From: an uncultured Nautiliales bacterium
Lineage (GTDB): Bacteria > Campylobacterota > Campylobacteria > Campylobacterales > Nautiliaceae
Assembly: GCA_964514005.1 (NCBI GenBank)
Contig: CAZEOW010000003.1
Coordinates: forward strand, 1-26,733
Length of the DNA stretch: 26,733 nucleotides
Direction: 5' to 3'
A model generated the notes under the pieces. It was not told where the DNA came from. It worked only from the letters and a program-made list of their open reading frames with translations, and ran no database searches. Below, piece after piece: positions 1-19,557 of the stretch; positions within the stretch are counted from its first letter, which is position 1; each line of letters starts with the position of its first letter. Made by a program: the position numbers and the translations under genes.

Positions 1-1358
1 TGAAGCGAGGTTTTAATAGTTTTATTAGTTTCTTTAGTTTTATTAGTTTCTTTAGTTTTATTAGTTTCTTTAGTTTTATTAGTTTCTTTAGCAGATTTAT
101 TCTCTTTAGAGGTTATTTTTTGATTTGAAGGTTTAGTAGGAATTTTGTCTACTTTCGGTGATAAATGTGTAGATATAACCTTTTTATGTAATTTTATTTT
201 AGTTTTTTGAGTTTTATTAGTATCTAAAGCTTGTTTAGGAAGAATAACAGGAATTATATGAGTTTTATCTTCAAGCTGAGGAATTGAATCTATGTCTATA
301 TCTAAGTCTTCATTTTCTATTTTAATTAAACCTAATTCATTTAAAAATGGGTCTATTGATATAGTATGAATTTTATTTGTAGGTAATTTTTTATAAGGTT
401 TTAAATAAATTAATTTTCTTTTTGTAAATTTATTTTTTTCTAACTGAATATCATCTTCAATTTTTATTATTTTAGCTTTAATATGGTTGTTTATTAACGC
501 TATATACTCTTTTTTTATATCTGTATCTAAAGGTAAGTAAGCTTTTATTATATAATCTGGTTTTAAGAAAGCTAAAATAATACTTTCTCCTTTTTTTACA
601 AATTCTTTATTTTGAACTAAAGGTTTAATATACTCTAAATCTTTTGGAGCAAGTAGGGTATAAGTTTTTTTATTTAATGTTATAATTTTTGCTATTTTAT
701 CATTTAAATAAGCTCTGTTTTTTTCTTCTAAATATACATACCCATCTACTGGAGCTTTTATTTTAAAAGTTTTTGCTTCAACTATACCTTCTGTTGTAAT
801 AATATTCATTTTATCATATATAAAAACCATAAGAAATACAATTACAGTTATAGCACTTATAATCATTCCAATAATAGAAACTTTTTTTAGTAACTCTTTT
901 TTATCAATTCTTTTATCCTCTTCAAGATTTACTCTATCTTCTATCATAATTTGTTTTACAATATTATTAGAGATAATATAGTTTAATATCTCCATTTGTT
1001 CTTTTGTCAAATGAACAAATTTAGCAACAAGCCCCATATCTTCTCTAACTTTTAAAAATTCAAGTTCTATATTCTCTATTTTTATTACTTCATCTTCAAA
1101 TACAAAAAGCATATCTGCTTTTATATATCTTTTATTTAGAAAATATTGAGGATTAGGAGCTTTTATTACACATCTTATGGTAGACCATTCAATAACTTCA
1201 TAGTTTTTACCCTCTATTTTTATAAATATTTTACTTGTATCATCAGATTTGCTTTCTTGAAGAGGGGTATTTATATCTTTCTTTTTAAAAAAAGAACTTA
1301 ATTCTTGTAGTTTGCTGGATATTTTGTTTAAAGTTAATGTAAAATCTATTTTTTTCAT
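1..1358 (-). CDS. Alg44-like protein (degenerate PilZ-like domain, one TM helix, HlyD/MFP-type periplasmic domain, low-complexity linker); 3' end lies outside the window
   Basis: Not in the ORF track. Hand translation from ATG 1358 (GAGGAG SD at 1365-1370) is open for 452 codons to the window edge. It contains IEGKNYEVIEWSTIRCVI (PilZ DxSxxG-like strand), TM VSIIGMIISAITVIVFLMVFIY (about 816-881), and lipoyl half-motifs IKAPVDGYV and VQNKEFVKKGESI. Confidence 0.75.
   Translation of the reverse strand, partial: MKKIDFTLTLNKISSKLQELSSFFKKKDINTPLQESKSDDTSKIFIKIEGKNYEVIEWSTIRCVIKAPNPQYFLNKRYIKADMLFVFEDEVIKIENIELEFLKVREDMGLVAKFVHLTKEQMEILNYIISNNIVKQIMIEDRVNLEEDKRIDKKELLKKVSIIGMIISAITVIVFLMVFIYDKMNIITTEGIVEAKTFKIKAPVDGYVYLEEKNRAYLNDKIAKIITLNKKTYTLLAPKDLEYIKPLVQNKEFVKKGESIILAFLKPDYIIKAYLPLDTDIKKEYIALINNHIKAKIIKIEDDIQLEKNKFTKRKLIYLKPYKKLPTNKIHTISIDPFLNELGLIKIENEDLDIDIDSIPQLEDKTHIIPVILPKQALDTNKTQKTKIKLHKKVISTHLSPKVDKIPTKPSNQKITSKENKSAKETNKTKETNKTKETNKTKETNKTIKTSL
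18..89 (-). repeat. Perfect in-frame 18-bp tandem repeat, 4 copies, encoding (KETNKT)4
   Basis: Plus-strand unit agttttattagtttcttt at 18-35, 36-53, 54-71 and 72-89, with no spacers. Confidence 0.97.
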
Positions 1359-1386
1359 AAGAAGCTCCTCTTTTTTAATTTATAAA

Positions 1387-1395
1387 ATTATAACA
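1387..1395 (-). promoter_or_regulatory. Extended -10 sigma70-type element TGTTATAAT upstream of the Alg44-like gene
   Basis: Exact TGnTATAAT on the minus strand in the 42-nt gap between two genes, 28 nt upstream of ATG 1358. The AT-rich background raises the chance-match rate. Confidence 0.5.
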
Positions 1396-1400
1396 ATTTA

Positions 1401-2345
1401 TTATTTTATTGTTGAAAAAATTTTATATGATTTTTTTCTTTTACCATTAGAGTTTATTACTCCCCAATATTTTTCTGCTTGTTTAAAATATCCTGTATGA
1501 TTAGGATTATCTATAAAATTAAAAAAATTAAATCCTATTAAGTTAGCCCCATTTTTGAAAATTGGTATTAGTTTTTTAAATTCTTTTAATACATAGCTTT
1601 GAAGGTTAGTTTTATAGCTTGAAATAGCTAAATATGCTAGAAAAGTTGGTTTTTTATACTTTTTATTTAAGTATAAAGCAAATGCAAGTGCTCTTAGGGG
1701 AGTATTTTTTATCTCTTTTATATTATTTCTTGTTATTGCTCTCATTTCTTGAAAAGCTATAAAGTCACTTATTTTAGCACTCTCTTTCATTGAAGGAGAA
1801 TATAAATTCCAGTTATATTCATCCCATATTTTATTGTAATCTCCAAAATCTCCTAAACATATTCCAACTAAAGTGTTTTTATCTTTTAAAAGTTTTATTG
1901 ATTTTACTTGTAATTTATCAAATTGTTTTGAAGAGGCCATATTGTTTTCGTTATATTCTGGATTGATTATAACAATTTTTTTGCCTTTAATTTTTTTTAA
2001 AAAATTTTTAAATTTTTTTAATTTAGCAAAATACTCTTTTTTATGTTTTTTTACAAATTCTGGTGAAATTTCATCTGCAAAGTAATAAAAAATAAAAATA
2101 GGAGTAAATCCTTTTTTAATTGCTTTATTAATTGTTTTAGCCGGATACCAAAACTCTTTCCAATCTCTTGTGATCCAAATAGAAAATGAGTTTACATTTT
2201 TTGGAGTAATTTTATAAATAGGAATTCTATCTTTATAGGAGCATTTTTTATAAAAGGCTTTATTTTTGCAAACAGTAAATCCTCCAACTCCAATATAAAA
2301 AGCAAAACTAAATGAAAAAGAGAGTATTAATAATAATTTACTCAT
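1401..2345 (-). CDS. Secreted (beta/alpha)8 glycoside hydrolase-like protein, clan GH-A-like
   Basis: Signal peptide MSKLLLILSFSFSFA; IIINPEYNE acid/base-like motif; KPTFLAY strand; C-terminal AEKYWGVINSNGKRKKSY resembles the E..fGl...dg..K motif. ATG 2345 is preferred; the track start 2351 is TTG. Confidence 0.65.
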   Translation of the reverse strand: MSKLLLILSFSFSFAFYIGVGGFTVCKNKAFYKKCSYKDRIPIYKITPKNVNSFSIWITRDWKEFWYPAKTINKAIKKGFTPIFIFYYFADEISPEFVKKHKKEYFAKLKKFKNFLKKIKGKKIVIINPEYNENNMASSKQFDKLQVKSIKLLKDKNTLVGICLGDFGDYNKIWDEYNWNLYSPSMKESAKISDFIAFQEMRAITRNNIKEIKNTPLRALAFALYLNKKYKKPTFLAYLAISSYKTNLQSYVLKEFKKLIPIFKNGANLIGFNFFNFIDNPNHTGYFKQAEKYWGVINSNGKRKKSYKIFSTIK

Positions 2346-4107
2346 AATCAATTATAAGGGAAATTGTGGATTTTGGATAAAGTTTTTTAATTCTAACATC
2401 TATAAACCTTTCTTTTTTATTGATGTTTATAATTTTTATTTTTGTTTTTAATACTTCAGGGGCAATGTGTTTAATTTTTACATTTGGATAATATATCCTA
2501 AAAGTAAAATTATCTATATCTACTTCGTTATCGTTAGAAATACCTATAAAAATCTTTTTTTCTGTAATTGTATCTATATGAAGTGAAATATTCTTTAAAA
2601 GTTTTGCTCTTTTGGCTATATCTTTTCCTTTTAGAGTTGGAATTTTTTGTTGTTTTAAAAATTTAAAATACTCTTTTAATATATGAATATTTTCTGGAGC
2701 ACTTAAAAGATGAGTATGAACACTTAGAGTGTATAATGTATTAAGAGATGTTAGTAATTTAGTCTCTTTTTTTATATGATCTAATATTTGCTTATCGTTG
2801 AAATTGTATTCAATAAGATATAAATAATCATCTGTTCCATGACGAGGAAGTAAAACAAAATTATCTATTATTGTTGGTTGCAAAGAAGGAATAGATTTTG
2901 CCATAACATATAAGTAATTGGCTTTTTTAATGTATTCTTTTATGATATTATTAATTTCCTCTCTTGGAGGTCTAAAACCTAAAACTTCTTTTTTAGTTAT
3001 TTTTTGTAAAATATTTTTAGATGCGATTATTTCTTGAGAAGCGTTTTTATTATTAATTTTAGAATGAGAAAAACTATGAGAAGCTATTTCTATATTCTTA
3101 AAAGAAGATGCTTTTTTTGTAATTTTTTTATGTTCTTGAGCAAGTTTTGCTACACAAAATAGAGTTGTATTTATATCATACTCTTTTGCTAATTTAGCAA
3201 AATTTATCATATTTTTATATTTATATTCTGTATCTTCTGATATAAAAACGGCCATTTTTTTATCTAAAAAAGGATATTTTACAAGAGTAATGGGATTTTT
3301 GAAATAGCTAAATATATTTTTAAAAATTGTATTAAAAGTTTTTTCACTCATATCTAAAAATGTGTATGCTGGAGTATTGAAATAAAACCATTTTCCTTTT
3401 TTATAAAATCCGTGCCATAAAATCCCTGCTTTTTTTACATTTAAATGTTTTGGAGTATCGGTAAGTGCCCAATTAGTAAGTGCTAAATCGGGAGTTTTTG
3501 TGAATAAATCTATATAATCATTTCCATAAAGAGTAATGAAAGAGGTTTTTAAGTTTTCTGCTTTTGCAATAGGGGATAGAAGCTTATATGTAAAAAAAGA
3601 TAAATCTTTTTTATAGAGTTTATAATCAGTTGACTTTAGATTAGTAAGATTTATTAAATATAGATTATTTGTAGGAATTAAATTTTCATTAAAATATCCA
3701 AAGTGGTAATTAAATATTAAATTCCCCCCTTTTTTTAAAAATTCTTGAATTTTAAAAAAAGTTTCTCTGCTTAATACATAATTATCGGGAATTATTAAAA
3801 TATCTTTTTTGGAAAGTTGCCTAATTTCATTAGGATATATAGTTTTTGTATTAAATCCTAATGTTTGGATTCTTTGTTGGAATTTTTCAAATACTCTATT
3901 GTAATTGTTTAATAATCCGTTCTTTTCTAAATATAAATCGTTTAATTGAGTTTTTAAAAAATATATATTCTGTTTAGGAGGTTGAAAAAAGCTAAAATTA
4001 TCATTTTTAGGAAGTATTTGATATAAAACATAACCAGAAATAGTAATCATTATAAATACTGATAAAAAAACAAAAAGAGGGTAGGTATATCTATTCGAAA
4101 AAGACAT
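2338..4107 (-). CDS. Membrane-anchored polysaccharide deacetylase (CE4/NodB-like) with an N-terminal class-I GATase-like domain
   Basis: N-terminal TM; ILIIPDNYVLS...FLKKGGNLIF (GATase/GH42-middle-like); VFISEDTE (motif 1 variant), EIASHSFSH (HxxxH), GFRPP and LSVHTH. AGGAG SD at 4114-4118. Confidence 0.85.
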   Translation of the reverse strand: MSFSNRYTYPLFVFLSVFIMITISGYVLYQILPKNDNFSFFQPPKQNIYFLKTQLNDLYLEKNGLLNNYNRVFEKFQQRIQTLGFNTKTIYPNEIRQLSKKDILIIPDNYVLSRETFFKIQEFLKKGGNLIFNYHFGYFNENLIPTNNLYLINLTNLKSTDYKLYKKDLSFFTYKLLSPIAKAENLKTSFITLYGNDYIDLFTKTPDLALTNWALTDTPKHLNVKKAGILWHGFYKKGKWFYFNTPAYTFLDMSEKTFNTIFKNIFSYFKNPITLVKYPFLDKKMAVFISEDTEYKYKNMINFAKLAKEYDINTTLFCVAKLAQEHKKITKKASSFKNIEIASHSFSHSKINNKNASQEIIASKNILQKITKKEVLGFRPPREEINNIIKEYIKKANYLYVMAKSIPSLQPTIIDNFVLLPRHGTDDYLYLIEYNFNDKQILDHIKKETKLLTSLNTLYTLSVHTHLLSAPENIHILKEYFKFLKQQKIPTLKGKDIAKRAKLLKNISLHIDTITEKKIFIGISNDNEVDIDNFTFRIYYPNVKIKHIAPEVLKTKIKIININKKERFIDVRIKKLYPKSTISLIIDYE

Positions 4108-4267
4108 ACTTTTCTCCTAATTCATTTAAAACATCTTCATAAGTTAATTCTTTTTTTGTTTTCTTTCTTTCTCTAGCTTTGTATAAAAAGTAAGCTATTA
4201 CTCCAAATATTAAAGTAAGCAGGGTTATTATTAAAATAAGCATTGATAAAAAACTTAAAATATTCAT
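4091..4267 (-). CDS. Small single-pass membrane protein, 58 aa; candidate PgaD/IcaD-like synthase partner
   Basis: Hand translation: MNILSFLSMLILIITLLTLIFGVIAYFLYKARERKKTKKELTYEDVLNELGEKYVFFE*. ATGA overlap with the GT2 stop, AAGGA SD upstream, 17-nt overlap with the deacetylase start. Below the ORF-track length cutoff. Confidence 0.8.
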   Translation of the reverse strand: MNILSFLSMLILIITLLTLIFGVIAYFLYKARERKKTKKELTYEDVLNELGEKYVFFE

Positions 4268-5589: not shown

Positions 5590-8500
5590 TCTATACTTTC
5601 ATAATCATTAGTATTAGTTGTGTTTGAGCTGTTTGAAAAACTACAACCGGTTTTAAATATTTTATTTTTATAAAAAGCTGATATTTTATATAAATTTTTG
5701 CTATCAAAAAAACTATATCCTATAGCACCTTTTAATGTTAAGTAATTTTTTTGATATTTTATCCCTATAAAATTTGAATCTGTCTTTTTAGGAGAATAGT
5801 AGCAACTATTTTTTGAGTTAAATTGATACCATCCTTCAGCAAACATTGTAAATGGAAATGATTCATAAAAGTCATAATAAAATTGAGGAGTAAAAACATT
5901 ATTTTTATTGTTTACATACTCATATGCTAAGCTATACCACAAATCTCTAATAGGAGAAATTTGATTAAAGTATGAAATTTCAGCTTTAATTCTGTTGTAT
6001 TTAATAGAACAGATACTTTTTCTTGAATATGCTAAATTATGTTTATTTATTCTAAAAGTGTATTTGTTAAAATATTCAATATCCCATCCTACCATTTTTT
6101 CAATATCATAAAAAATATCTATTAAGAAGTTTTTATTTTTATATCCTATACCGTAGTAGTAACTTTTATGGTTTTGGTTATTTTGAGTTAGATTATATCC
6201 TCTAATTAACCCAAAAATATTTTTTCCCGCTGTTAAATAGTAAGTTGTCATATCAGTTTTTTGATTATCTTTGAAGTAGTTTAATTTAAAATTTAAAAAA
6301 TAATTTTTTAAAGTTTTTATTACTACTATACTTTTTTTAGGTTGAGTTTTTTTAGGAGTTGTTTTAATGGGTTTAATTATTTTTTTAGGAGGTTTTTTTA
6401 TAGTAATTTTTTTAATAAGAGGTTTTTTTATAATATTTTTATGTGAAACTACTTTTTTTGATTTAGATTTTTTAGCTTCAATAGCTTTTAAATTTTCTAA
6501 TATATATTTTTTTAAAGAGTTTTCTTTTTTAAATGGAACATATTTGCCTTTTTCCCAACTTTCTCTAATAATTTTACACTTTTTTTCGCATTTAATATAT
6601 AAAGTTTTATATCCTTTATCTTTTTTTCTTTTAGATGCAAATACTTGGTAAAACTTTACTATATATACATTTTTTCTTTTTTCTAATAATATAGGGTCAT
6701 ATATTCCTACACTTATAAAATAGGAGTTTTTAAATAGAGCCTGTTTTCTTAATACCCATCCTAAATTATTAGTATAATTTTTTCCATAAAATTTTGAATA
6801 CTCTCTAAAATTCATACTCTCCCAAGCTTTTTTCCAATTATTTAAAAACTCTTTTAAAGAATTAGGAAGAGGTTTTGGCATTTGAGAGAGAAGTTTTTTA
6901 TATATTTTTTTTGCCTCTTCTATTTTTCCGGATTTTTGAAGAGAATAAGCATAGTTATACTCAATAGTAGGAGTTTTTTTATACCACATTAAAAGATAAA
7001 ATTCTCCTGCTGCTTTAGCGTATTGTTTTGAGTATTCTAATGTATAAGCATATTTTTCATGAACATCATAATCATCAGGATTATATGATAGATACATCTT
7101 ATAATAATCTGCAGCTGTTGCATAATTATTTGAAAAATAGGCTCTATCTCCTAAAATAAGTAGCTTTTTACTTCTGTTGTTAAAATATTCATCTATTGTA
7201 GCAGCAGTGCTTGAAGTTACAAAATTGGGAGATATTTTTAATATTTTTGCTTTTAAAATGGCAGCTTTTTTATAATTGGGATATTTATTTAATAATTGAT
7301 TTAATACTCTTAAAGCTTCTTTATTAAAACCATTCCAATAGTATCTTTTTGCAAGTTCTAAATAAGCTTCTTTTGTGTTTTTATAGTTTGCATAATATTC
7401 CCAATTTCCAAAACCTTTATAATAATTTTTTAATTCAAGATATATATCTCCTAAAGTTTTATAGATTTGAGCATTTTCAGGGTGAAGTTTCAAATATCTT
7501 TCATAATAATAAGCTGATTGCTGATAATTTTTTATCATATAATAAAAATCTGCTAATTTTAATAAATACTCTTCATTAGCAGGGTCTTTTTTAAGAAGTT
7601 TTTTATATTTTTTTATAAGTGGAGCGATATTTTTATTTAAAATCATTAAACTCTCTTTTGCATCTTCGTCAAATGGATTTTCTTTTAATACCTTTTTAAA
7701 CATACTTTTTGCTTTTTTCTTATTTCCTTGCCACATTTGAATGTAAGCCAACATTTTATAAGCTTCATATTTTTCTTTTTTATTGCCGTGTTCTAAAACA
7801 TCACTTAAATAGATTGTAGCTTGATAATATTTTCCTTCCCATGCAAGGATTTTTCCAAGTAAAAGTTTTACTTTTGGATTATTTGTGTGTTGAAGTTTTT
7901 TTAAATATTCTAAAGCTTCTTTATTATTTCCACTCCAACTTAGAAGTTTTGCAAGTAAAATTTTTGCATTGTCATTATGGGGATTTTTATTAATAAAATC
8001 CTGAACTAATAATACTGCTTTTTTATGATTTTGTTGGAATAAAGCAAAAGCAAGTGCTTCTAAATTTTTGTAAGATGGGTCTTTTTTATAGGCTTCTTCT
8101 AAATTTTTAATAACTCTTTTTTTAGCTTCTTCGATTTTTTTAGAATATTTTTGGGTAAATTTTTTATCATATTTTGTAATTTGTTTAAGCAGTTTTTCAG
8201 CTTTGTTATACTCTCCTAAATAATAGTATATTTCAATTAGCTTTTTTGCATAGTCTAATTTAAATGAAGAGTAATAGAGTAATTTAAAATAGTTTTTTGC
8301 TTCTTTATATTTTCCAAGATAATATAAATTATAAGCTTTTATTTCAAAATAATCTATACTTTTTTTGTTTTTTATTTTAGATAGAACAAAAAGAGAGTCT
8401 TTATATTTTCCTTCCCACATCAACACTCTTGCTATTTTTATTTTTGAATCATCAGTTAAAGAGTCTATTTTTTTTATTGCATTAAGAGCATAAAAGAATT

Positions 8501-8828
8501 GTAAAAGCTTTTTATATTTTCCTTTTTCGTAAAAGTAAGAGACTGTATTATTTGGATTTTTGATTAAATATTTTTTATAAATAAAAAAAGATTCTATTTG
8601 TCTTTTTAATTTTTTTGCTATTTTATTTTTTTTATCTATTTTTAAAACTTTTTCTATATATTTTTTAGCTTCTTTATAATTTCCTTTTTGAATATAATAT
8701 TTTGCTAATAAAAGGCGGTTTTTTGTATCGTATTTGTGAGTTTTTACATATTGGATTAAACCTTTTACATCAATATTTAAAGCAAAAAGAGGAATAAAAA
8801 ATAAAAGCAGCAATACTCTTATTTGCAT
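5559..8828 (-). CDS. Outer-membrane polysaccharide export protein: signal peptide, TPR scaffold, NTF2-like domain, K/P-rich linker, C-terminal beta-barrel (PgaA/BcsC/PelB functional class)
   Basis: MQIRVLLLLFFIPLFA signal (ATG 8828 preferred over 8846); many TPRs with recurrent LA..L.W.G; about 250 C-terminal residues of alternating aromatic strands including CYYSP, ending in Trp. Confidence 0.78.
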   Translation of the reverse strand: MQIRVLLLLFFIPLFALNIDVKGLIQYVKTHKYDTKNRLLLAKYYIQKGNYKEAKKYIEKVLKIDKKNKIAKKLKRQIESFFIYKKYLIKNPNNTVSYFYEKGKYKKLLQFFYALNAIKKIDSLTDDSKIKIARVLMWEGKYKDSLFVLSKIKNKKSIDYFEIKAYNLYYLGKYKEAKNYFKLLYYSSFKLDYAKKLIEIYYYLGEYNKAEKLLKQITKYDKKFTQKYSKKIEEAKKRVIKNLEEAYKKDPSYKNLEALAFALFQQNHKKAVLLVQDFINKNPHNDNAKILLAKLLSWSGNNKEALEYLKKLQHTNNPKVKLLLGKILAWEGKYYQATIYLSDVLEHGNKKEKYEAYKMLAYIQMWQGNKKKAKSMFKKVLKENPFDEDAKESLMILNKNIAPLIKKYKKLLKKDPANEEYLLKLADFYYMIKNYQQSAYYYERYLKLHPENAQIYKTLGDIYLELKNYYKGFGNWEYYANYKNTKEAYLELAKRYYWNGFNKEALRVLNQLLNKYPNYKKAAILKAKILKISPNFVTSSTAATIDEYFNNRSKKLLILGDRAYFSNNYATAADYYKMYLSYNPDDYDVHEKYAYTLEYSKQYAKAAGEFYLLMWYKKTPTIEYNYAYSLQKSGKIEEAKKIYKKLLSQMPKPLPNSLKEFLNNWKKAWESMNFREYSKFYGKNYTNNLGWVLRKQALFKNSYFISVGIYDPILLEKRKNVYIVKFYQVFASKRKKDKGYKTLYIKCEKKCKIIRESWEKGKYVPFKKENSLKKYILENLKAIEAKKSKSKKVVSHKNIIKKPLIKKITIKKPPKKIIKPIKTTPKKTQPKKSIVVIKTLKNYFLNFKLNYFKDNQKTDMTTYYLTAGKNIFGLIRGYNLTQNNQNHKSYYYGIGYKNKNFLIDIFYDIEKMVGWDIEYFNKYTFRINKHNLAYSRKSICSIKYNRIKAEISYFNQISPIRDLWYSLAYEYVNNKNNVFTPQFYYDFYESFPFTMFAEGWYQFNSKNSCYYSPKKTDSNFIGIKYQKNYLTLKGAIGYSFFDSKNLYKISAFYKNKIFKTGCSFSNSSNTTNTNDYESIECLLEILKVW

Positions 8829-10120
8829 ATTTTTGTCTCTTCCCATTCAAATGCTTCTATAATATCCGCTTTTGATATATACAATTTTTCAAAAATTGGT
8901 TTTAAATTCCCTTTTCTTACATTAATTAAAACTACATAATAAAATTTTCCATCAAAATATATAATATCTTTATTTCTTAATTTATCGGCTATTTTTTCTA
9001 AATTAAGTTCAGATGTAAATTTAATTAAAGTAAATACAATTCTTTCTAAATATAATGAATTAATAATTTTGCAAAAATTTTCTAATGAATTTGCAATTTT
9101 ATTTTTAGGAAATTTATTTAATAAAGATGTATAAAAGTGAAACTTTATAAGTTTTTCGACTTCTAAAATGTATTCTCCTATTAAAAATTTATTTGGTAAT
9201 ATATCTTCGCATCCTTCTTTAATTGCAAGCATTTTATCTTCTACTCTTACATACTCTTTATTTACTATATATAAAATCTTTGAATCTATTTTTTCTTTCA
9301 TTTTACATATACTTATATCTAATCTATCTGAATTATAAATGACAATATGAGGATTTTCTAAAATTTTTGAAATTACATCCGAAGTGTTTGTAGCAATTTT
9401 TAATTCAAACATAGGTTTATCAAAAATATACCTGTTTAAATTGAGTAGATTTTTGTCTTGCGATACTATTAAAATTTTCTTTTTATTGATAGAGACTTTT
9501 TTTTCTTTTGAATCTGAAAGGTTTAATCTCTCTCCATTGTATAAAAATTGACACTCTTCATATCTTATAGGAAAAATAGAGTGTTTAATAGATAATATTC
9601 TTTGAGATGTTCTTTTTACTATTAAATTTAAATCACTAAAATTTTCCATTATTTCTATACAGGAAGTATTGTCTTTATTGGGAACTGCTGTTATCCATAG
9701 TTTTATTTTTCCTTTTATTTCTATTAATTCTTCCATAAAAGGTTTAACTTCTTCTATATCCGAAATTGAAAATAAAAGGTCAATTCTTTGAAAGATTAAA
9801 ATATCAGGATTAAAAGTTTTAATTATTCTTTTTAGATCTTCTAACAAAAACTTATATCCAAATTGAATTTTAAAGTCTTCCCAATTCTCTTTTAAATTTA
9901 AATATTCTAATTTTTTAATAGTTTGTTGCAGTTTTTCATCTTTTATAAAAGAAATTGCTTTTAATCTTTTTTCAAAAATTTGTTTAGGATAAGCGGATAA
10001 AATTAAAACTTTTGCTTTTTGTCTTGAAATTTCAAATAAACTAAAAGTTAATTTTCCAACTTTTTTACTCCCTTCTATTAAAATTATATCAGATTGTTGT
10101 AATGCATCATGTATTGTCAT
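8819..10120 (-). CDS. BcsE-like protein: degenerate RecA/KaiC-like domain, degenerate receiver, degenerate GGDEF with intact I-site
   Basis: GSKKVGKLT (Walker A-like, aa 17-25); KKILIVSQD...PHIVIYN receiver lacking the phospho-Asp; RVED (292-295); LRNKDIIYFDGKFYYVVL (RxxD 382-385, GGDEF lost). AAGGA SD. Confidence 0.7.
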   Translation of the reverse strand: MTIHDALQQSDIILIEGSKKVGKLTFSLFEISRQKAKVLILSAYPKQIFEKRLKAISFIKDEKLQQTIKKLEYLNLKENWEDFKIQFGYKFLLEDLKRIIKTFNPDILIFQRIDLLFSISDIEEVKPFMEELIEIKGKIKLWITAVPNKDNTSCIEIMENFSDLNLIVKRTSQRILSIKHSIFPIRYEECQFLYNGERLNLSDSKEKKVSINKKKILIVSQDKNLLNLNRYIFDKPMFELKIATNTSDVISKILENPHIVIYNSDRLDISICKMKEKIDSKILYIVNKEYVRVEDKMLAIKEGCEDILPNKFLIGEYILEVEKLIKFHFYTSLLNKFPKNKIANSLENFCKIINSLYLERIVFTLIKFTSELNLEKIADKLRNKDIIYFDGKFYYVVLINVRKGNLKPIFEKLYISKADIIEAFEWEETKICK

Positions 10121-11957
10121 TTAATTCCTTTAATTGATTCTCAAATACCTTTACAAGAGGCGATTTTTCATATTTTAATACTTTTATTATCAATATAATA
10201 GCCTCTTTATTGTAAGGGTCTTTTTCTAAAACTTTATAAAGGTATTTTTTTGCCTTTTTATACTCTTTTAAGTAAAAATAGTCTTTTGCTATTACAAGAT
10301 AACTTTCGCTATTTTTTAAAATATCTAAACTTTTTTTAAATTTTTTTAAATTAAATAAGATTTCTCCTAAAACAGATTTAGTCTCTTTATTAGGATTTAA
10401 GTTATATGCTATATTGGCAAAATTTAAAGCCTCTTTTGGAGAAGATAATTTAGCTTTTAATAAATAAGGTTTATAAGAAGCTTTATTTATTGTTTCTAAA
10501 CTTTTTTCTATATATGTTTTTGCAAGAGGCAGATTTTTTTCTTTATAAGCTTTTAGGGCTTTTTTGTAATTTGTTAAAGAGAGATATTTTATAGTTTTTG
10601 GTTTTGAAAACAAATTGTTTTTTATTGCTTGAATTTTAATATACCACCATCCATCGTTAAGCTCGCTTAAAGAAAAATATTTTTTAGAAGTTTTATATCT
10701 TAAAATAGGAGTTTTTATAAATTTTTTATCTCTACTGATAGTAATTACAAACTTTTTATAAGGACTTGTCCATTTTAATATATTTTCTATTTTTAACTCT
10801 TTAACAGGAAGAGGAAGTATTGTTTTAATAATCTCTCCATTCTTTGTATAAAAACCTTCATTTTCTTTTATTTTAATTTTATCTGTTGTAATTGCCCCGC
10901 TATACACACTTGTAGCTAATGTTTTTTCGTTTTTTATTACTTCAAAATCTGTTCCGTAATTTTTTATTTTATTATTTTCTGCTATTATTTCTACTTTGTT
11001 GTTATTAGTAATAAATTCAGCATCAGCTTTTTTTATAATAATCTTATTTTTAAAATTTGTTGAAAATAAATTTTTATAAGCTCTTATTTCTAACTTATCA
11101 TTTTTATAAGTCTTTATTATTACATTGTTTTCAAGTTTGTATATTTTCATATTATTTGAACTGCCAATATCTATTTTTTGGGGAAAAAGACAGTAAAAAT
11201 AATCTATTGAAAACAATAGAACAATCGTAACAGTTGATAAAGCAGCGGCAAGTCTTTTTATTCTTATAATTTTTGCTGTTTTTGGAAGATATATAAAAAA
11301 ACTTGTTCCTTCTTTCTCTTTACTCTCTACAGCAATTGAACCTCCTAATTTTTCTATTACCACTTTAGTTAAATTAAGTCCAATTCCACTCCCTTCTTTT
11401 TTATCAGTTGTATAATATTTTTTAAATATTTTTGTTATTTCTTCTTTGCTAATTCCTTCTCCCGTATCTTTTATAGAAATTAAATAACCGCTTTTTTCTT
11501 TTTCTACTTTTATAAAAACAACACCTTTGTATTTATTATATTTTATAGCATTATGCAAGAGATTAAAAAAAGCCTTTTTTAACCACTCTTTATTAGCAGT
11601 AATAGGAAGCTTTTCGTGTTTAAAAACTATTTCTATCTCTTTTCTTTCAATATCGCTTTTTAACTCTTCTAAAATCTCCCATATTAACTCATTTAAATTA
11701 AATCTATGATTTTTTAATTTACTTCTTTTATATCTTTCAACTTCAATAAAATCTTTTAACATCTCAATAACTATATTAAGATTGGTTTTTATATTTCTTA
11801 AAAGTTCTTCTTTTTTCTCTTTTGGAATCTTTTTTTCTAAAATGGAAACTGAAAATTTAATACTTGCAAGTTTATTTTTTATATCGTGATAAAAAACATG
11901 TGCAAAAGGTGTTTTTTTTTTAACATTATTCTCCCCCTTTTCTAAAAATATATCCAA
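10107..11957 (-). CDS. Histidine kinase with inverted architecture: HisKA-HATPase, TM, FecR-like, FN3-like, TPR
   Basis: H-box YHDIKNKL, N-box NLLHNAIKY, G1 KDTGEG, G2 GSGIGL; TM aa 236-258; YGTDFEV...SVYSG (FecR-like); GWWYIKIQAI (FN3-like). The track start 11957 is a weak TTG; a stronger ATG at 11926 is out of frame. Confidence 0.85.
   Translation of the reverse strand: MDIFLEKGENNVKKKTPFAHVFYHDIKNKLASIKFSVSILEKKIPKEKKEELLRNIKTNLNIVIEMLKDFIEVERYKRSKLKNHRFNLNELIWEILEELKSDIERKEIEIVFKHEKLPITANKEWLKKAFFNLLHNAIKYNKYKGVVFIKVEKEKSGYLISIKDTGEGISKEEITKIFKKYYTTDKKEGSGIGLNLTKVVIEKLGGSIAVESKEKEGTSFFIYLPKTAKIIRIKRLAAALSTVTIVLLFSIDYFYCLFPQKIDIGSSNNMKIYKLENNVIIKTYKNDKLEIRAYKNLFSTNFKNKIIIKKADAEFITNNNKVEIIAENNKIKNYGTDFEVIKNEKTLATSVYSGAITTDKIKIKENEGFYTKNGEIIKTILPLPVKELKIENILKWTSPYKKFVITISRDKKFIKTPILRYKTSKKYFSLSELNDGWWYIKIQAIKNNLFSKPKTIKYLSLTNYKKALKAYKEKNLPLAKTYIEKSLETINKASYKPYLLKAKLSSPKEALNFANIAYNLNPNKETKSVLGEILFNLKKFKKSLDILKNSESYLVIAKDYFYLKEYKKAKKYLYKVLEKDPYNKEAIILIIKVLKYEKSPLVKVFENQLKELNDNT
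11912..11921 (-). repeat. A10 homopolymer in the first codons of the histidine kinase
   Basis: Ten T on the plus strand. Minus strand reads GGGGGAGAATA-ATG-TT-A10-CACC. It is the longest run I noticed in the window. Confidence 0.9.
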
Positions 11958-12582
11958 GCTCTCTTTTATTTATAATTAAATCTTTTTTTCCAAGTTTTTC
12001 TCTTAATCTTTTTACCAAAACATTTAAAGTATTTTTTGGAACATATTCTTGCCATATGTGAGATATGATAAAATCAGAACTTAAAATCTTTCCTTCATTA
12101 TTTAAAAATAATTCCAATAAATCACTTTCTCTTCTTGTAAGATTGATTACTTTTGCTTTTTTTATTAAAAGTTTTTCTTCATAGTTATACTTAATATCAT
12201 CGTCTATATAAATAATTTTTTTAGGTTTAAAAATTTTATTAATTCTCAAAATTATTTCTTCATAATCAAACGGTTTTTTTATAAAATCTTCTGCACCAAG
12301 CTCAAAGGCTTTTTTTATATTTTCTATTTCAGTATGACTTGACATAATAATAATTTTGTATCTTTCAAAGATTTGAAAATGTTTTTTCATCTCTTCTAAA
12401 AAATTCCCATCAGGTAAAGTTATATCAGCCAAAATCAAATCAGGATCTATTTTTTCAAAGTTTTGTAAAAACTCTTTAAGGGTATAATATGAATATATTC
12501 TAAACTCTTCTGCTTCAAGAATTAAACTTATAGCATAATTTAAATCTTTTTCGTCTTCTAGGATAACTATCTTCAACTTCAC
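11926..12582 (-). CDS. OmpR/PhoB-family response regulator
   Basis: ILEDE acidic pocket, DLILADITLPDG phospho-Asp, KKPF, winged-helix LTRRE...LNVLVKRLREKL...GY. GTG start at 12582 or TTG at 12576. Confidence 0.93.
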   Translation of the reverse strand: MKLKIVILEDEKDLNYAISLILEAEEFRIYSYYTLKEFLQNFEKIDPDLILADITLPDGNFLEEMKKHFQIFERYKIIIMSSHTEIENIKKAFELGAEDFIKKPFDYEEIILRINKIFKPKKIIYIDDDIKYNYEEKLLIKKAKVINLTRRESDLLELFLNNEGKILSSDFIISHIWQEYVPKNTLNVLVKRLREKLGKKDLIINKRELGYIFRKGGE

Positions 12583-12589
12583 CCCCCCC
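12582..12589 (-). repeat. G8 homopolymer forming the ribosome-binding region of the response regulator
   Basis: Eight C on the plus strand between the rsmE stop (12591) and the regulator start. It is the longest G/C run seen in this AT-rich window. Confidence 0.85.
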
Positions 12590-12590
12590 T

Positions 12591-13247
12591 TTATAATAAA
12601 ACTTTTGCACTAACTGAAAATGCGGCTGTTTCGCTTTTTAATATAAATCCATCAAGAGACACTTTTTGTTTAAACATTTCTTTTTCTTTTTTACTAAATC
12701 CACCTTCAGGTCCTATTATAAAAGGCAGATTATAGCTTTTACACTCTATTTTTGGTGCATTAAAATCTAATGCTATAAAATTTTTGTATTTTTTAATAAA
12801 CTCTTCTAACGAATCTAAAATCTCTATTTCTAACTTATTGCTTCTTCCACACTGCTGAGAAGAGTTGATTATAATTTTATCTAATCTTTCTTGTTTTAAC
12901 CTAAAATTTCTTTGAGAATATTCACAATAAAAAAAACTTATTTTACTTACGCCTATTTCATTTAGACTTGGAAGAGTCTTTTCTATATTTTTTGGTTCTA
13001 TTATACACCATCCTAAATGGAAAAATTTTAATGGTTTGTTAGGCTTTAAAATTTTTTCTTCTAAGGTTAAATATGCCTCTTTTTTATTAATCTCCTCTAT
13101 TTTATAGATATATAAATAATCGTCTTTTAAATTTCTGATTTTTACTTTTTCATTTTTTTTTATTCTTCTTACCTTAAATAAATACTTATGATTTTCTCCT
13201 TTTATAATTATATTATTTATAGGATTAGGCTCATATAAAAATTGCAT
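12591..13247 (-). CDS. rsmE: 16S rRNA m3U1498 methyltransferase RsmE
   Basis: H...VRRIK N-terminus, QQCGRS, IIGPEGGFS and ILKSETA SPOUT motifs. Confidence 0.93.
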   Translation of the reverse strand: MQFLYEPNPINNIIIKGENHKYLFKVRRIKKNEKVKIRNLKDDYLYIYKIEEINKKEAYLTLEEKILKPNKPLKFFHLGWCIIEPKNIEKTLPSLNEIGVSKISFFYCEYSQRNFRLKQERLDKIIINSSQQCGRSNKLEIEILDSLEEFIKKYKNFIALDFNAPKIECKSYNLPFIIGPEGGFSKKEKEMFKQKVSLDGFILKSETAAFSVSAKVLL

Positions 13248-15008: not shown

Positions 15009-15134
15009 TTATTACAAAATGTAACAGAATTAATCAAAAGTTAATAGAAGATTTGAGATATTTATAATTTTAATTTATAATTTGTTAAATTAATGTAGTA
15101 TATTTATGGTAAGATACAAAAAAAAGGAGAATGA
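15009..15134 (+). promoter_or_regulatory. Probable promoter region of the complex I-like operon
   Basis: 126-nt gap with TATAAT at 15063-15068 and 15076-15081 and an AGGAG SD before ATG 15135. The exact promoter cannot be resolved. Confidence 0.35.
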
Positions 15135-15930: not shown

Positions 15931-15933
15931 GGG

Positions 15934-17589: not shown

Positions 17590-17598
17590 GGAGTGAAA

Positions 17599-18570: not shown

Positions 18571-18571
18571 G

Positions 18572-19554: not shown

Positions 19555-19557
19555 AAA

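What the first reader, a model, noticed from the sequence alone, without database searches (positions are those of the whole stretch)
1..12582. Candidate undescribed hybrid synthase-dependent exopolysaccharide system with its own signalling module
Seen: nine co-oriented genes, all but one junction overlapping (4-32 nt), encoding synthase, small membrane partner, deacetylase, hydrolase, TPR-porin, c-di-GMP receptor-like protein, PilZ-MFP adaptor, kinase and regulator. Known: PNAG (pgaABCD), cellulose (bcs), alginate (alg) and Pel each have characteristic parts lists. Inference: this locus pairs a PNAG-type synthase with a cellulose-type BcsE and an alginate-type Alg44. I know of no described system with that combination, nor a characterised synthase-dependent EPS machine in vent Campylobacterota. 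It may drive biofilm formation on chimney surfaces.
Basis: partly seen in the sequence, partly recalled or inferred. Interest (0 to 1): 0.92.

Follow-up and report, generated by a model that had tools for sequence, protein, structure and literature searches.

The report
Uncharacterised exopolysaccharide secretion operon, BcsE-like sensor
A vent bacterium of the Nautilia/Caminibacter group carries a gene cluster for making and exporting a sugar polymer. Its six core genes recur in the same order in many marine bacteria, match none of the described systems, and include a likely c-di-GMP sensor of a type so far known only from cellulose secretion.

Summary
Nine co-oriented minus-strand genes lie between positions 12582 and 1, with mechanical overlaps of 4-32 nt and one 42-nt gap. 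The ninth gene runs about 141 codons past the window start.

- The GT2 is PgaC-like (31% identity) but scores below the PgaC equivalog cut-off.
- The deacetylase is CE4.
- The "hydrolase" models as a clan GH-A TIM barrel and has no Pfam family.
- The 433-aa protein models as NTPase*-REC*-GGDEF*. Its top five PDB fold matches are all E. coli BcsE. Its two RxxD motifs are invariant in 17 orthologues and align with BcsE's two I-sites.
- The ninth gene is a remote Alg44 relative (PilZ-TM-MFP), but it has lost both PilZ c-di-GMP motifs.

The "hybrid" reading needs correcting. The real unit is a six-gene core: BcsE-like, TPR/outer-membrane protein, GT2, 58-aa membrane protein, CE4, GH. This core keeps the same order in about 17 species of Campylobacterota and Gammaproteobacteria. 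The two-component system is specific to Nautiliaceae, and the Alg44-like gene is found only in this population.

The cluster fails the membership tests for pga, bcs, alg and pel, and I found no published description. I rate it a new variant of a known kind. The polymer and c-di-GMP binding are untested.

The parts
11926..12582 (-). OmpR-family response regulator (receiver plus winged-helix domain). Linked to the cluster only in Nautiliaceae.
   Evidence: Pfam Response_reg 6.8e-19 and Trans_reg_C 2.5e-17. Syntenic in L004, L008, L015, L017 and L059. Absent next to the core in other lineages.
10107..11957 (-). Histidine kinase with inverted topology. The HisKA/HATPase core is N-terminal and cytoplasmic, one TM helix lies at aa 233-258, and a 358-aa C-terminal periplasmic part carries TPR repeats.
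   Evidence: HATPase_c 3.5e-24, HisKA 2.9e-4, TPR_1 1.8e-5. NCBIfam kinase cores align from about aa 13-24. Hydropathy. C-terminal fragment scan.
8819..10120 (-). g3: cytoplasmic BcsE-like protein with a degenerate RecA/KaiC-like NTPase domain, a degenerate receiver domain and a degenerate GGDEF-like domain. Inferred c-di-GMP sensor. First gene of the conserved six-gene core.
   Evidence: No Pfam or NCBIfam family. Profile against PDB sequences: receiver domains 1e-6 and KaiC 0.007. AF2 model pLDDT 86.5. The top five Foldseek PDB hits are all E. coli BcsE over the full length (1.7e-16 to 1.6e-14), ahead of KaiC at 4.6e-11. Always lies directly upstream of the TPR/OMP gene, in 21 loci.
9236..9247 (-). 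g3 R292-V-E-D295: first RxxD motif, in the receiver-like domain.
   Evidence: R292 and D295 are invariant in 14 and 17 orthologues. hhalign places them on E. coli BcsE R306ATD309, the REC* I-site described in PMC11470070.
8966..8977 (-). g3 R382-N-K-D385: second RxxD motif, four to five residues upstream of a beta-hairpin (FDGKF) that occupies the place of GGDEF.
   Evidence: Invariant in all orthologues. hhalign places it on BcsE R415TGD418, the canonical I-site. Strands 386-389 and 394-399 in the model.
5559..8846 (-). Periplasmic TPR scaffold fused to a C-terminal beta-rich domain, inferred to be the outer-membrane export pore. Order: signal peptide, TPR (about aa 40-640), NTF2-like Cds6_C domain (aa 664-762, nt 6561-6857), Lys/Pro-rich linker, C-terminal domain (about aa 845-1095, nt 5562-6314).
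   Evidence: TPR_19 2e-37 and other TPR families. Cds6_C 6.7e-9. The C-terminal domain is conserved in 15 orthologues, ends in an invariant Trp and has two invariant Cys. It has about 14-16 segments of period-2 hydrophobicity. It has no Pfam or PDB sequence match. It is a separate gene in Nitratiruptor and Sulfuricurvum. PgaA model 22.9 bits against a cut-off of 366.65.
4264..5589 (-). Membrane-embedded family-2 glycosyltransferase, the inferred processive synthase and translocase. PgaC/IcaA-like, with a QRYRW motif.
   Evidence: Glycos_transf_2 2.7e-39. TIGR03937 PgaC_IcaA is the best model at 206 bits, below its cut-off of 422.3; NodC scores 129 bits. 31% identity to E. coli PgaC, E 3e-48. 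PDB sequence hits include hyaluronan and cellulose synthases. TM segments at both ends.
4091..4267 (-). 58-aa single-pass membrane protein with a short cytoplasmic tail ending in the conserved Y-x-F-F-E. Inferred synthase partner and possible anchor for g3.
   Evidence: Strongly conserved from Nautiliaceae to Pontibacterium. No similarity to PgaD (137 aa) or BcsF in sequence, although the topology resembles BcsF. Always sits between the GT2 and the deacetylase.
2338..4107 (-). Membrane-anchored or periplasmic CE4 polysaccharide deacetylase with a GH42M-like (class I amidotransferase-like) N-terminal domain and a C-terminal extension.
   Evidence: Polysacc_deac_1 1.3e-12 and Glyco_hydro_42M 1.5e-5. 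Profile against PDB: peptidoglycan and chitin deacetylases 7e-11. Invariant SEDTE, HSxxH, RPP and HTH motifs. No BLAST similarity to PgaB.
1401..2351 (-). g8: secreted (beta/alpha)8 glycoside hydrolase of clan GH-A type, belonging to a family with no Pfam model. Candidate catalytic residues are E132 (NPEYNEN, nt 1956-1958) and E202 (FQEMR, nt 1746-1748).
   Evidence: No Pfam, NCBIfam or PDB sequence hit. The family has 208 proteins, all named hypothetical. Invariant residues. AF2 pLDDT 93.2, pTM 0.90. Foldseek matches GH53, GH5_18, GH26, GH2 and GH10, with PslG at rank 37.
1..1358 (-). g9 (5' 452 codons; the gene continues about 141 codons beyond the window). Alg44-like protein with a degenerate PilZ domain, a TM helix (aa 162-180), an MFP/HlyD-like periplasmic domain, a Lys/Thr-rich linker and a weak SPOR-like C-terminus. 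Lineage-specific add-on.
   Evidence: No word-index homologues and no Pfam or PDB hit on its own. Exhaustive phmmer finds 9 remote homologues, best 9.6e-11. These carry HlyD_3 (7 of 10 scanned members) and PilZ (4 of 10). The family profile hits the Alg44 PilZ domain 4RT1 at 9e-8 and then MFPs. Homologues sit beside Alg8-like GT2 genes in alginate operons. g9 lacks RxxxR, and DxSxxG reads EWSTIR. Tail and stop come from L057. SPOR E 0.15 only.
17..91 (-). Perfect 18-nt tandem repeat, 4.2 copies, encoding (KETNKT)n in the g9 linker.
   Evidence: TRF gives 100% matches. There are two units in L057 against four here. Every contig found ends in or near it.

Best explanation
**What it is.** The cluster encodes a synthase-dependent secretion machine for an exopolysaccharide in a Gram-negative envelope. 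It is built around a conserved six-gene core and probably controlled by c-di-GMP.

**How it most likely works** (steps marked shown or inferred):
1. The PgaC-like GT2, with its 58-aa single-pass partner, polymerises a beta-linked N-acetylhexosamine (most likely GlcNAc) chain from a UDP-sugar and threads it across the inner membrane. The fold and family are shown; the sugar and linkage are inferred.
2. The cytoplasmic BcsE-like protein g3 binds c-di-GMP between its two invariant RxxD motifs, as BcsE does with its REC*/GGDEF* I-site tandem. It then docks on or stabilises the synthase, possibly through the tail of the small membrane protein, as BcsF does for BcsE. The fold and motifs are shown; binding and docking are inferred.
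3. In the periplasm the CE4 enzyme partly de-N-acetylates the chain, and the clan GH-A hydrolase g8 trims or clears it. The domain identities are shown; the substrate is inferred.
4. The TPR/NTF2-like scaffold guides the polymer to the C-terminal beta-rich domain, which forms the outer-membrane pore. The TPR is shown; the pore is inferred.

**Lineage-specific additions.** In Nautiliaceae an OmpR-type regulator and a kinase with a periplasmic TPR sensor were placed in front of the core and probably control its transcription. In this population alone, a decayed Alg44 paralogue with no c-di-GMP motifs, an MFP domain and a possible peptidoglycan-binding tail was added at the end. It may act as a periplasmic bridge.
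For: - **Core gene order.** g3, TPR/OMP, GT2, small, CE4 and g8 keep the same order in about 17 species-level genomes of Campylobacterota and Gammaproteobacteria.
- **GT2.** PgaC_IcaA is the best NCBIfam model at 206 bits, and identity to E. coli PgaC is 31%.
- **g3.** AF2 pLDDT is 86.5. The five best PDB fold matches are full-length E. coli BcsE. Of only 9 residues invariant in 17 orthologues, 4 are R292/D295 and R382/D385. These align with BcsE R306ATD and R415TGD, the tandem I-sites that bind an intercalated c-di-GMP dimer (PMC11470070; PMC7439463). The receiver domain lacks a conserved phospho-acceptor.
- **Deacetylase.** CE4 with conserved His and Asp motifs.
- **g8.** pLDDT 93.2, clan GH-A fold, invariant NE and E.
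- **Topology.** Signal peptides and TM segments fit the proposed compartments.
- **Outer-membrane domain.** Terminal Trp and amphipathic beta periodicity.
- **c-di-GMP context.** GGDEF/EAL genes lie next to the cluster in Caminibacter and Pontibacterium.
- **g9.** Alg44 ancestry and lost motifs.
Against: - No experiment supports any step. The polymer is unknown, and GT2 sequence does not fix the sugar or linkage.
- g3 has no significant sequence match to BcsE (hhalign E 0.13, probability below 1%; no Pfam hit). Foldseek TM-scores are only about 0.3 because the domains are arranged differently. The BcsE link therefore rests on fold order plus motif positions.
- BcsE's known partners BcsQ and BcsR are absent from the cluster.
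- The small protein also occurs in distant clusters where no g3 was detected (Firestonebacteria and a deltaproteobacterium). This favours a synthase-partner role over a g3-anchor role.
- The pore domain has no detectable relative and was not modelled.
- Promoter-like and terminator-like sites are no more frequent than in shuffled sequence, so co-transcription is inferred only from spacing.
Confidence: 0.68

Rival explanations
1. It is simply a divergent, rearranged pgaABCD operon that makes PNAG (poly-beta-1,6-GlcNAc). PgaB is split into a deacetylase gene and a hydrolase gene, and regulatory genes have been added.
For: The parts list is functionally the same as pga: TPR porin, deacetylase, hydrolase, GT2, small membrane partner. 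PgaC_IcaA is the GT2's best model, with 31% identity to E. coli PgaC. Bundalovic-Torma et al. 2020 noted environmental pga-like arrangements in which pgaB and pgaD were "too divergent to detect" (PMC7112194).
Against: - The GT2 scores 206 bits against an equivalog cut-off of 422.3. The PgaA model scores 22.9 against 366.65.
- There is no BLAST or profile similarity to PgaA, PgaB or PgaD.
- The hydrolase matches clan GH-A folds, and PgaB is not among the listed matches.
- The deacetylase carries a GH42M-like domain that PgaB lacks.
- Gene order differs.
- c-di-GMP sensing would go through a separate BcsE-like protein, not a PgaC-PgaD interface.
Confidence: 0.2
2. g3 is not a c-di-GMP receptor. 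It is an NTPase-receiver signalling protein, an atypical response regulator or KaiC-like switch, that acts downstream of the adjacent kinase.
For: Public annotations call orthologues "response regulator" or "CheY-like". The receiver domain is detectable by sequence at 1e-6. The Walker-A-like GK is kept in most orthologues. In the window, g3 overlaps the kinase gene.
Against: - The phospho-acceptor position is Asn here and varies among orthologues: N, S, F, V, A, Y, D.
- g3 accompanies the core in about 12 lineages that have no adjacent kinase.
- The residues under the strictest conservation are the two RxxD motifs, not NTPase or phosphorylation residues.
- BcsE outranks KaiC in the fold search.
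Confidence: 0.1
3. g9 is not part of this machine. It is a decaying leftover, or an independently transcribed paralogue, of an alginate-type alg44 gene that happens to lie downstream.
For: - It is absent from every related cluster.
- It is the only junction with a gap, and it has its own AGGAG and a promoter-like site with an extended -10 at 1415..1387.
- Both PilZ motifs are lost.
- Its homologues sit in alginate operons next to Alg8-like genes.
Against: The reading frame is intact for about 593 codons. The segments covered by other contigs are identical or near-identical: 313 and 300 aa in L001/L002, 440 aa in the 98%-related L059, and 100% nucleotide identity over 164 nt in L057. It is co-oriented and terminal, and a convergent gene follows. 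The promoter-like match is not above chance.
Confidence: 0.35

Closest known systems
PNAG system pgaABCD / hmsHFRS (E. coli, Yersinia)
   Same: It has the same logic and functional parts list: an inner-membrane GT2 synthase with a small membrane partner, a CE4 deacetylase, a glycoside hydrolase and a TPR protein leading to an outer-membrane pore. The GT2 is a recognisable PgaC relative (31% identity).
   Different: Only the GT2 is detectably homologous, and it falls below the equivalog cut-off. Deacetylase and hydrolase are separate genes with different domain make-up and fold class. The small partner has one TM and 58 aa, against two TM and 137 aa in PgaD. The TPR protein carries an NTF2-like domain and an unrelated C-terminal domain. 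A BcsE-like protein is present, which pga lacks.
BcsE of the E. coli type II cellulose secretion system (with BcsF, BcsR, BcsQ)
   Same: g3 has the same three-domain order, NTPase*-REC*-GGDEF*. It has two RxxD motifs at the positions of BcsE's REC* and GGDEF* I-sites, and a non-phosphorylatable receiver. Like bcsE, it is the leading gene of its unit. A short single-pass membrane protein is encoded nearby, as BcsF is.
   Different: There is no significant sequence similarity and no Pfam BcsE/GIL hit. g3 is 433 aa against 523 aa. It serves a PgaC-like synthase without a PilZ domain, not BcsA. No BcsQ, BcsR, BcsB or BcsG is present. The small membrane protein is not similar to BcsF in sequence.
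Alg44 of the alginate system (Pseudomonas)
   Same: g9 belongs, remotely, to the same PilZ-TM-MFP family. The family profile hits the Alg44 PilZ structure first (9e-8) and then HlyD/EmrA-type adaptors. Its homologues lie in alginate operons.
   Different: g9 has lost RxxxR and DxSxxG. It has no Alg8 partner and no other alginate genes nearby. It carries a repeat-rich linker and a possible SPOR-like end. It is confined to one population.
Gram-positive clusters that pair a GT2 synthase with a degenerate-GGDEF I-site receptor: Listeria pssA-E (PssE) and Bacillus ydaJKLMN (YdaK). Recalled from my own knowledge, not tested here.
   Same: A separate I-site-type c-di-GMP receptor activates a membrane GT2 synthase, and a hydrolase (plus, in pss, a deacetylase-like gene) is encoded in the same cluster.
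   Different: Those receptors are membrane-anchored and lack the NTPase* and REC* domains. The clusters have a BcsB-like subunit and no outer-membrane parts. I ran no sequence comparison against them.
Pel system (PelA-G)
   Same: A partially deacetylated hexosamine polymer, a TPR-porin protein (PelB), a hydrolase/deacetylase (PelA), and a degenerate-GGDEF I-site receptor (PelD).
   Different: Pel uses a cytosolic GT4 (PelF) and the PelD/E/G membrane proteins. Here a membrane GT2 synthase does the job. None of the Pel-specific families was hit.

Membership tests
pgaABCD (PNAG) operon | Synthase is a PgaC/IcaA equivalog (NCBIfam TIGR03937, cut-off 422.3 bits) | tested here: not met
   206 bits. 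It is the best model but sits well below the cut-off. 31% identity to E. coli PgaC.
pgaABCD (PNAG) operon | PgaA-type TPR porin (TIGR03939, cut-off 366.65 bits) | tested here: not met
   22.9 bits, from TPR repeats only. BLAST against E. coli PgaA gives no significant match. The C-terminal domain has no PDB sequence hit.
pgaABCD (PNAG) operon | PgaB: one protein with an N-terminal CE4 domain and a C-terminal GH153 domain | tested here: not met
   Two separate genes. Neither is similar to E. coli PgaB. g8's fold matches are clan GH-A families.
pgaABCD (PNAG) operon | PgaD: two-TM partner that binds c-di-GMP together with PgaC | tested here: not met
   The partner here has 58 aa and one TM, with no resemblance to the 137-aa PgaD.
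pgaABCD (PNAG) operon | Product is poly-beta-1,6-N-acetylglucosamine | not testable with these tools
   Needs polymer isolation, dispersin B or F598 tests, and NMR or methylation analysis.
BcsE (c-di-GMP sensor of type II cellulose systems) | Three-domain architecture NTPase*-REC*-GGDEF* | tested here: met
   AF2 model pLDDT 86.5. The five best PDB fold hits are full-length BcsE chains. The receiver domain is also seen by sequence, with a weak KaiC match at the N-terminus.
BcsE (c-di-GMP sensor of type II cellulose systems) | Tandem RxxD I-sites on REC* and GGDEF* | tested here: met
   R292xxD295 and R382xxD385 are invariant in 17 orthologues and aligned to BcsE R306ATD and R415TGD. The motifs are defined in PMC11470070.
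BcsE (c-di-GMP sensor of type II cellulose systems) | Sequence-family membership (Pfam/NCBIfam BcsE or GIL model, or significant profile match) | tested here: not met
   No Pfam hit even at E 10. No NCBIfam hit. hhalign E 0.13.
BcsE (c-di-GMP sensor of type II cellulose systems) | Works with BcsF, BcsR/BcsQ and the BcsA synthase | tested here: not met
   No BcsA, BcsB, BcsQ or BcsR in the cluster. The small membrane protein shares BcsF's topology but not its sequence. A physical contact could not be modelled.
BcsE (c-di-GMP sensor of type II cellulose systems) | Binds c-di-GMP | not testable with these tools
   Needs a binding assay (DRaCALA, ITC) on wild type and RxxD mutants.
Alg44 (alginate co-polymerase) | N-terminal PilZ, one TM helix, periplasmic MFP domain | tested here: met
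   Met only through remote homologues: phmmer best 9.6e-11, HlyD_3 and PilZ in those homologues, family profile against Alg44 PilZ 4RT1 at 9e-8, TM at aa 162-180. g9 alone hits no family.
Alg44 (alginate co-polymerase) | PilZ c-di-GMP motifs RxxxR and D/NxSxxG | tested here: not met
   g9 has no Arg in the first motif, and the second reads EWSTIR, whereas its homologues keep RQHAR and DWSVSG.
Alg44 (alginate co-polymerase) | Encoded beside alg8 in an alginate operon (algD, algK, algE, algG and others) | tested here: not met
   No such genes in the window. g9 follows g8 and is followed by a convergent CapD-like gene. Its homologues do sit in such operons.
Synthase-dependent exopolysaccharide secretion systems of Gram-negative bacteria (general class) | Membrane-embedded processive GT2 synthase | tested here: met
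   GT2 families, a QRYRW motif, TM segments at both ends, and matches to hyaluronan and cellulose synthases.
Synthase-dependent exopolysaccharide secretion systems of Gram-negative bacteria (general class) | Periplasmic TPR scaffold coupled to an outer-membrane beta-barrel | tested here: inconclusive
   The TPR is clear. The barrel is inferred from the terminal Trp, conservation and beta periodicity. It has no homologue and was not modelled.
Synthase-dependent exopolysaccharide secretion systems of Gram-negative bacteria (general class) | Dedicated cyclic-di-GMP receptor and periplasmic polymer-modifying enzymes | tested here: met
   BcsE-like g3, with receptor function inferred. CE4 deacetylase. 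GH-fold g8.

The most novel reading that the evidence does not exclude
The six-gene core is a fifth, so far unnamed family of Gram-negative synthase-dependent exopolysaccharide machines, widespread in vent Campylobacterota and marine Gammaproteobacteria. In it, a BcsE-type tandem I-site sensor regulates a non-cellulose, PilZ-less synthase. That would show BcsE-like "activation by proxy" to be a portable module rather than a cellulose speciality. The system would also bring a new glycoside-hydrolase family (g8) and a new type of outer-membrane export domain.
Probability: 0.5. Interest if true: 0.75.

Novelty: new variant of a known kind. Interest (0 to 1): 0.62.

Why it matters
- **A gap in the catalogue.** Synthase-dependent systems (cellulose, alginate, PNAG, Pel) are the reference models for how Gram-negative bacteria build biofilm matrix. 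This operon type is conserved across two phyla, yet three of its six proteins have no family annotation at all. It includes culturable carriers such as Marinobacterium jannaschii, Pontibacterium sinense, Nitratiruptor sp. SB155-2 and Caminibacter species.
- **BcsE outside cellulose.** The papers I found describe BcsE-type sensors only with cellulose synthases of Gamma- and Betaproteobacteria. A structural counterpart wired to a PgaC-like synthase would show whether the mechanism generalises, and it offers a small, simple system to test that.
- **Ecology.** Nautiliaceae and other Campylobacterota dominate vent biofilms. This cluster is a concrete candidate for their matrix polymer, and in Nautiliaceae for its environmental control through a dedicated two-component system.
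- **Enzymes.** g8 is a candidate founding member of a new GH family, with likely catalytic residues already identifiable.

Tried and rejected
**Searches that found nothing**
- Direct family scans of g3, g8 and g9 found nothing in Pfam or NCBIfam, even with Pfam at E 10.
- PDB sequence searches of g8 and g9 alone found nothing useful.
- The word-indexed protein search found no g9 homologue. Only the exhaustive search did.
- Rfam found no RNA family, such as a c-di-GMP riboswitch, in the window.
- Five literature searches gave no description of the operon. The library does not hold most subscription-journal papers.

**Comparisons that gave no answer**
- BLAST or profile comparison of the TPR/OMP, deacetylase and g8 with E. 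coli PgaA and PgaB found no similarity.
- hhalign of g3 against a single BcsE sequence was not significant. I used it only to see which residues pair up.
- The profile of the C-terminal outer-membrane domain hit nothing in the PDB or Pfam.
- The promoter and terminator scan was uninformative in this AT-rich DNA: 73 promoter-like sites against 92.6 expected, and one internal terminator-like site.
- The GT2's best plasmid matches were a 1116-aa multidomain Bacillus mycoides glycosyltransferase of unknown function. This did not help with the product.

**Recovering the rest of g9**
- The first exact look-up of g8 failed because the public gene call uses the ATG two codons downstream.
- Longer contigs did not help. 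All of them end at the repeat.
- Only the 1.2-kb contig L057 crosses it, and its first 208 nt do not match the window, so that end may be chimeric.

**Ideas considered and dropped**
- g3 as a phosphorylatable response regulator (see rivals).
- The small protein as PgaD.
- The cluster as Pel (no GT4 or PelD/E/G) or as cellulose (no BcsA/B).

Full report
**1. What is in the sequence**

The left 12.6 kb of the window is very AT-rich: 21-25% G+C, against 30-33% in the nuo genes to the right. In order of transcription they are:
- RR (12582..11926)
- HK (11957..10107)
- g3 (10120..8819)
- a 1095-aa TPR protein (8846..5559)
- a GT2 (5589..4264)
- a 58-aa membrane protein (4267..4091)
- a 589-aa deacetylase (4107..2338)
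- g8 (2351..1401)
- g9 (1358 to beyond position 1)

With longest-ORF starts the junctions overlap by 32, 14, 28, 31, 4, 17 and 14 nt. Only g8-g9 has a gap, of 42 nt with an AGGAG. The overlaps are upper bounds, because a public gene call on a near-identical contig starts HK later. That start would remove the H-box that the kinase models align to.

First, rsmE ends 8 nt upstream of RR on the same strand. Second, g9 is incomplete in the window. A short metagenomic contig (L057) overlaps window 200-1 at 100% identity and extends g9 by 141 codons to a stop. A convergent CapD-like gene follows. The cluster therefore ends with g9, about 420 nt left of the window.

A perfect 18-nt x 4.2 repeat (17-91, encoding KETNKT units) lies in g9. 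L057 has two units where the window has four. Every longer contig I could find breaks there.

**2. Identity of each product**

*Regulators.* RR is an OmpR-type regulator. HK has a normal HisKA/HATPase core but an unusual layout: the core is N-terminal, a single TM helix lies at aa 233-258, and a 358-aa C-terminal part with TPR repeats lies beyond the membrane.

*Synthase.* The GT2 matches GT2 families strongly. Its best NCBIfam model is PgaC_IcaA (206 bits), which is under the 422.3-bit equivalog cut-off; NodC follows at 129 bits. It is 31% identical to E. coli PgaC. It has a QRYRW motif and TM segments at both ends.

*Deacetylase.* This is a CE4 enzyme: Pfam 1.3e-12, and a family profile against peptidoglycan and chitin deacetylases at 7e-11. 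It has invariant metal and catalytic motifs and an N-terminal GH42M-like domain.

*TPR protein.* It has a signal peptide, about 600 aa of TPR and an NTF2-like Cds6_C domain (6.7e-9). A Lys/Pro-rich linker and a roughly 250-aa C-terminal domain follow. That last domain is conserved in 15 orthologues, ends in an invariant Trp and has two invariant Cys. It shows about 14-16 stretches of alternating hydrophobicity. It is a separate gene in Nitratiruptor and Sulfuricurvum. Nothing in the PDB or Pfam resembles it by sequence. "Porin" is therefore a reasonable inference, not a result.

*g8.* It had no family, name or PDB relative. With 46 homologues it gave a confident model (pLDDT 93.2, pTM 0.90). 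The model matches (beta/alpha)8 glycoside hydrolases of clan GH-A: GH53, GH5_18, GH26, GH2 and GH10, with PslG further down. The invariant NPEYNEN and FQEMR motifs fit the usual acid/base and nucleophile glutamates of that clan (my own knowledge).

**3. The BcsE-like protein**

g3 has only 14 relatives in the word-indexed search, none with a Pfam domain. A profile of these detects a receiver domain (aa ~215-335, 1e-6) and, weakly, KaiC at the N-terminus.

The AlphaFold model (pLDDT 86.5) finds five full-length E. coli BcsE chains as its best matches in the PDB (1.7e-16 to 1.6e-14). These come from the 2024 cryo-EM structures and rank ahead of KaiC at 4.6e-11. TM-scores are low (~0.3) because the three domains are oriented differently. 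The match is therefore one of domain order and fold, not of a rigid body.

I recovered 17 orthologues from genomes of two phyla. In these only nine residues are invariant, and four of them form two RxxD motifs: R292/D295 and R382/D385. The second motif lies just upstream of a beta-hairpin, where a diguanylate cyclase has its I-site upstream of GGDEF. A statistically insignificant hhalign alignment to E. coli BcsE nevertheless pairs these motifs with R306ATD and R415TGD. Those are the REC* and GGDEF* I-sites that together clamp an intercalated c-di-GMP dimer with nanomolar affinity (PMC11470070; PMC7439463).

The receiver's phospho-acceptor position is Asn here and varies among orthologues. I conclude that g3 works like BcsE. 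By sequence criteria it is not a member of the BcsE family, and BcsE's partners BcsQ and BcsR are absent.

**4. The Alg44-like protein**

On its own g9 hits nothing. The exhaustive search found nine remote homologues, the best at 9.6e-11 and 30% identity. These carry HlyD_3 and PilZ domains. A profile of the set hits the Alg44 PilZ crystal structures first (9e-8) and then membrane-fusion proteins. One homologue sits in a full alginate-type operon, after an Alg8-like GT2 and before AlgG- and AlgE-like genes. Another also follows an Alg8-like GT2.

However, the homologues keep RQHAR ... DWSVSG, whereas g9 has no arginine in the first motif and reads EWSTIR in the second. It is unlikely to bind c-di-GMP in the canonical way. 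Its tail has a weak SPOR-like match (E 0.15), which is only a lead.

**5. Conservation**

Neighbourhood look-ups were combined with a genome scan using the g8 profile. That scan returned 42 species-level loci, which I annotated with my own HMMs.

- **Core.** The order g3, TPR/OMP, GT2, small, CE4, g8 is kept in Nautiliaceae, Nitratiruptor, Sulfuricurvum and Sulfurimonadaceae. It is also kept in Gammaproteobacteria: Pontibacterium, Marinobacterium jannaschii, Methylococcales, and a partial locus in Piscirickettsiaceae.
- **Small protein.** It is strikingly conserved across this range.
- **Two-component system.** RR-HK lies directly upstream only in Nautiliaceae. There the whole block sits in the same nuo/AAA/rsmE context as in the window.
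- **g9.** It occurs only in the window population (L001, L002, L059).
- **Distant versions.** Clusters in Myxococcales, Firestonebacteria and a deltaproteobacterium keep the GT2, CE4 and g8, and mostly a small protein, but have no detectable g3.
- **Weaker relatives.** The lowest-scoring g8 relatives, in Sulfurovum, Hydrogenimonas and Persephonella, stand alone.

**6. Mechanism and rivals**

The most economical reading is a synthase-dependent secretion machine for a partly de-N-acetylated, beta-linked hexosamine polymer, switched on by c-di-GMP through g3. In Nautiliaceae it would also be under transcriptional control of the adjacent two-component system. Diguanylate cyclase and phosphodiesterase genes lie next to the cluster in Caminibacter and Pontibacterium. 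The N. profundicola genome paper discusses c-di-GMP signalling and tabulates signal-transduction domains for vent Epsilonproteobacteria (PMC2628731).

Shown here: folds, families, motifs, topology and synteny. Inferred: the sugar, c-di-GMP binding, the g3-synthase contact, the pore and co-transcription.

The main rival is that this is just a very divergent PNAG operon. That is partly a matter of naming. It fails every sequence-based pga membership test, but it could still make PNAG.

The idea that the small protein anchors g3 as BcsF anchors BcsE is attractive, since the two share topology and a conserved C-terminal tail. It is weakened because a small-protein relative persists in distant clusters without g3.

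**7. Novelty**

None of the searches of the paper library turned up this operon, a BcsE-like protein outside cellulose systems, or an EPS synthase system in these taxa. The closest remark is in Bundalovic-Torma et al. 2020. They saw environmental pga-like arrangements with undetectable pgaB and pgaD.

The library does not cover most subscription journals, so "undescribed" is provisional. The class (synthase-dependent EPS system) is well known. The composition is new: a BcsE-like sensor with a PgaC-like synthase, a new GH family and an unrelated outer-membrane domain. I therefore rate it a new variant of a known kind, with moderate to high interest. The "three-system hybrid" is largely one lineage's add-on to a widespread core, and nothing about the product or the regulation has been tested.

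Noticed in passing
window 17-91 (minus strand, inside g9); L057 300-360: A perfect 18-nt tandem repeat (4.2 copies) encodes KETNKT units. A second contig from another sample has two units. All longer contigs stop here, so the repeat both varies in copy number and breaks assemblies.
   Followed up: partly
window 10107-11957 (minus strand): The histidine kinase is built "backwards". The catalytic core is at the N-terminus in the cytoplasm, followed by one TM helix and a 358-aa C-terminal extracytoplasmic part with TPR repeats and a faint FecR-like match, E 0.2. What it senses is unknown.
   Followed up: partly
window 12591-13247 (minus strand): rsmE (16S rRNA methyltransferase; PUA_4 and Methyltrans_RNA in orthologues) is co-oriented and ends 8 nt before RR. 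Either transcription reads through, or the cluster's promoter lies inside rsmE. In Nautilia lithotrophica the gap is 142 nt.
   Followed up: no
L009 9039-10004; L010 487-1755; L020, L021, L029 upstream of g3; L022, L023, L025 downstream of g8: A HupE_UreJ_2-family membrane protein is encoded inside or directly beside the six-gene core in at least eight loci from both phyla. It is absent from the window and other Nautiliaceae. It may be a seventh, optional component.
   Followed up: partly
window 6561-6857 (minus strand); L004 20840-21335: An NTF2-like Cds6_C domain sits between the TPR region and the C-terminal domain of the export protein (6.7e-9). The same domain is fused to a YkuD L,D-transpeptidase encoded just after the Nautilia cluster. 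This hints at a link to peptidoglycan.
   Followed up: no
L009 1-1273; L005 19041-21452: In Nitratiruptor the core follows an AlgK-like Sel1/TPR gene and an alginate lyase gene directly. In a distant epsilonproteobacterial MAG it abuts BcsQ-like and BcsC-like genes on the other strand. Different EPS systems seem to cluster in these genomes.
   Followed up: no
L005 18462-19067; L006 16871-17488: In the distant epsilonproteobacterial MAGs a 201-205-aa protein with no Pfam hit follows g8 on the same strand, at the position g9 has in the window. I did not test whether it is related to g9.
   Followed up: no
window 1-13000 versus 15000-24000: The EPS cluster has 21-25% G+C, except about 28.5% in the 1-kb bin (4001-5000) that lies mostly within the GT2 gene. 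The neighbouring nuo operon has 30-33%. The step could reflect weaker codon constraint or foreign origin. The cluster is nevertheless syntenic in related genera.
   Followed up: no
window 13299-15008 (+) and 15135-26698 (+): Divergent from the cluster are an AAA+ ATPase (WHD and AAA domains in orthologues) and a NADH:quinone oxidoreductase operon with a fused NuoC/D subunit of 551 aa. This flank is conserved in Nautilia and Caminibacter.
   Followed up: no
L057 1-208: The first 208 nt of the contig that extends g9 do not match the window, although the next 164 nt are identical to it. The contig may be chimeric or record a rearrangement. The g9 tail taken from it should be confirmed.
   Followed up: partly
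L058 3733-7083 (Bacillus mycoides plasmid): The GT2's best plasmid-borne relatives (37-39% identity) are the C-terminal part of a 1116-aa multidomain glycosyltransferase on large Bacillus mycoides plasmids, with no neighbouring EPS genes annotated.
   Followed up: no
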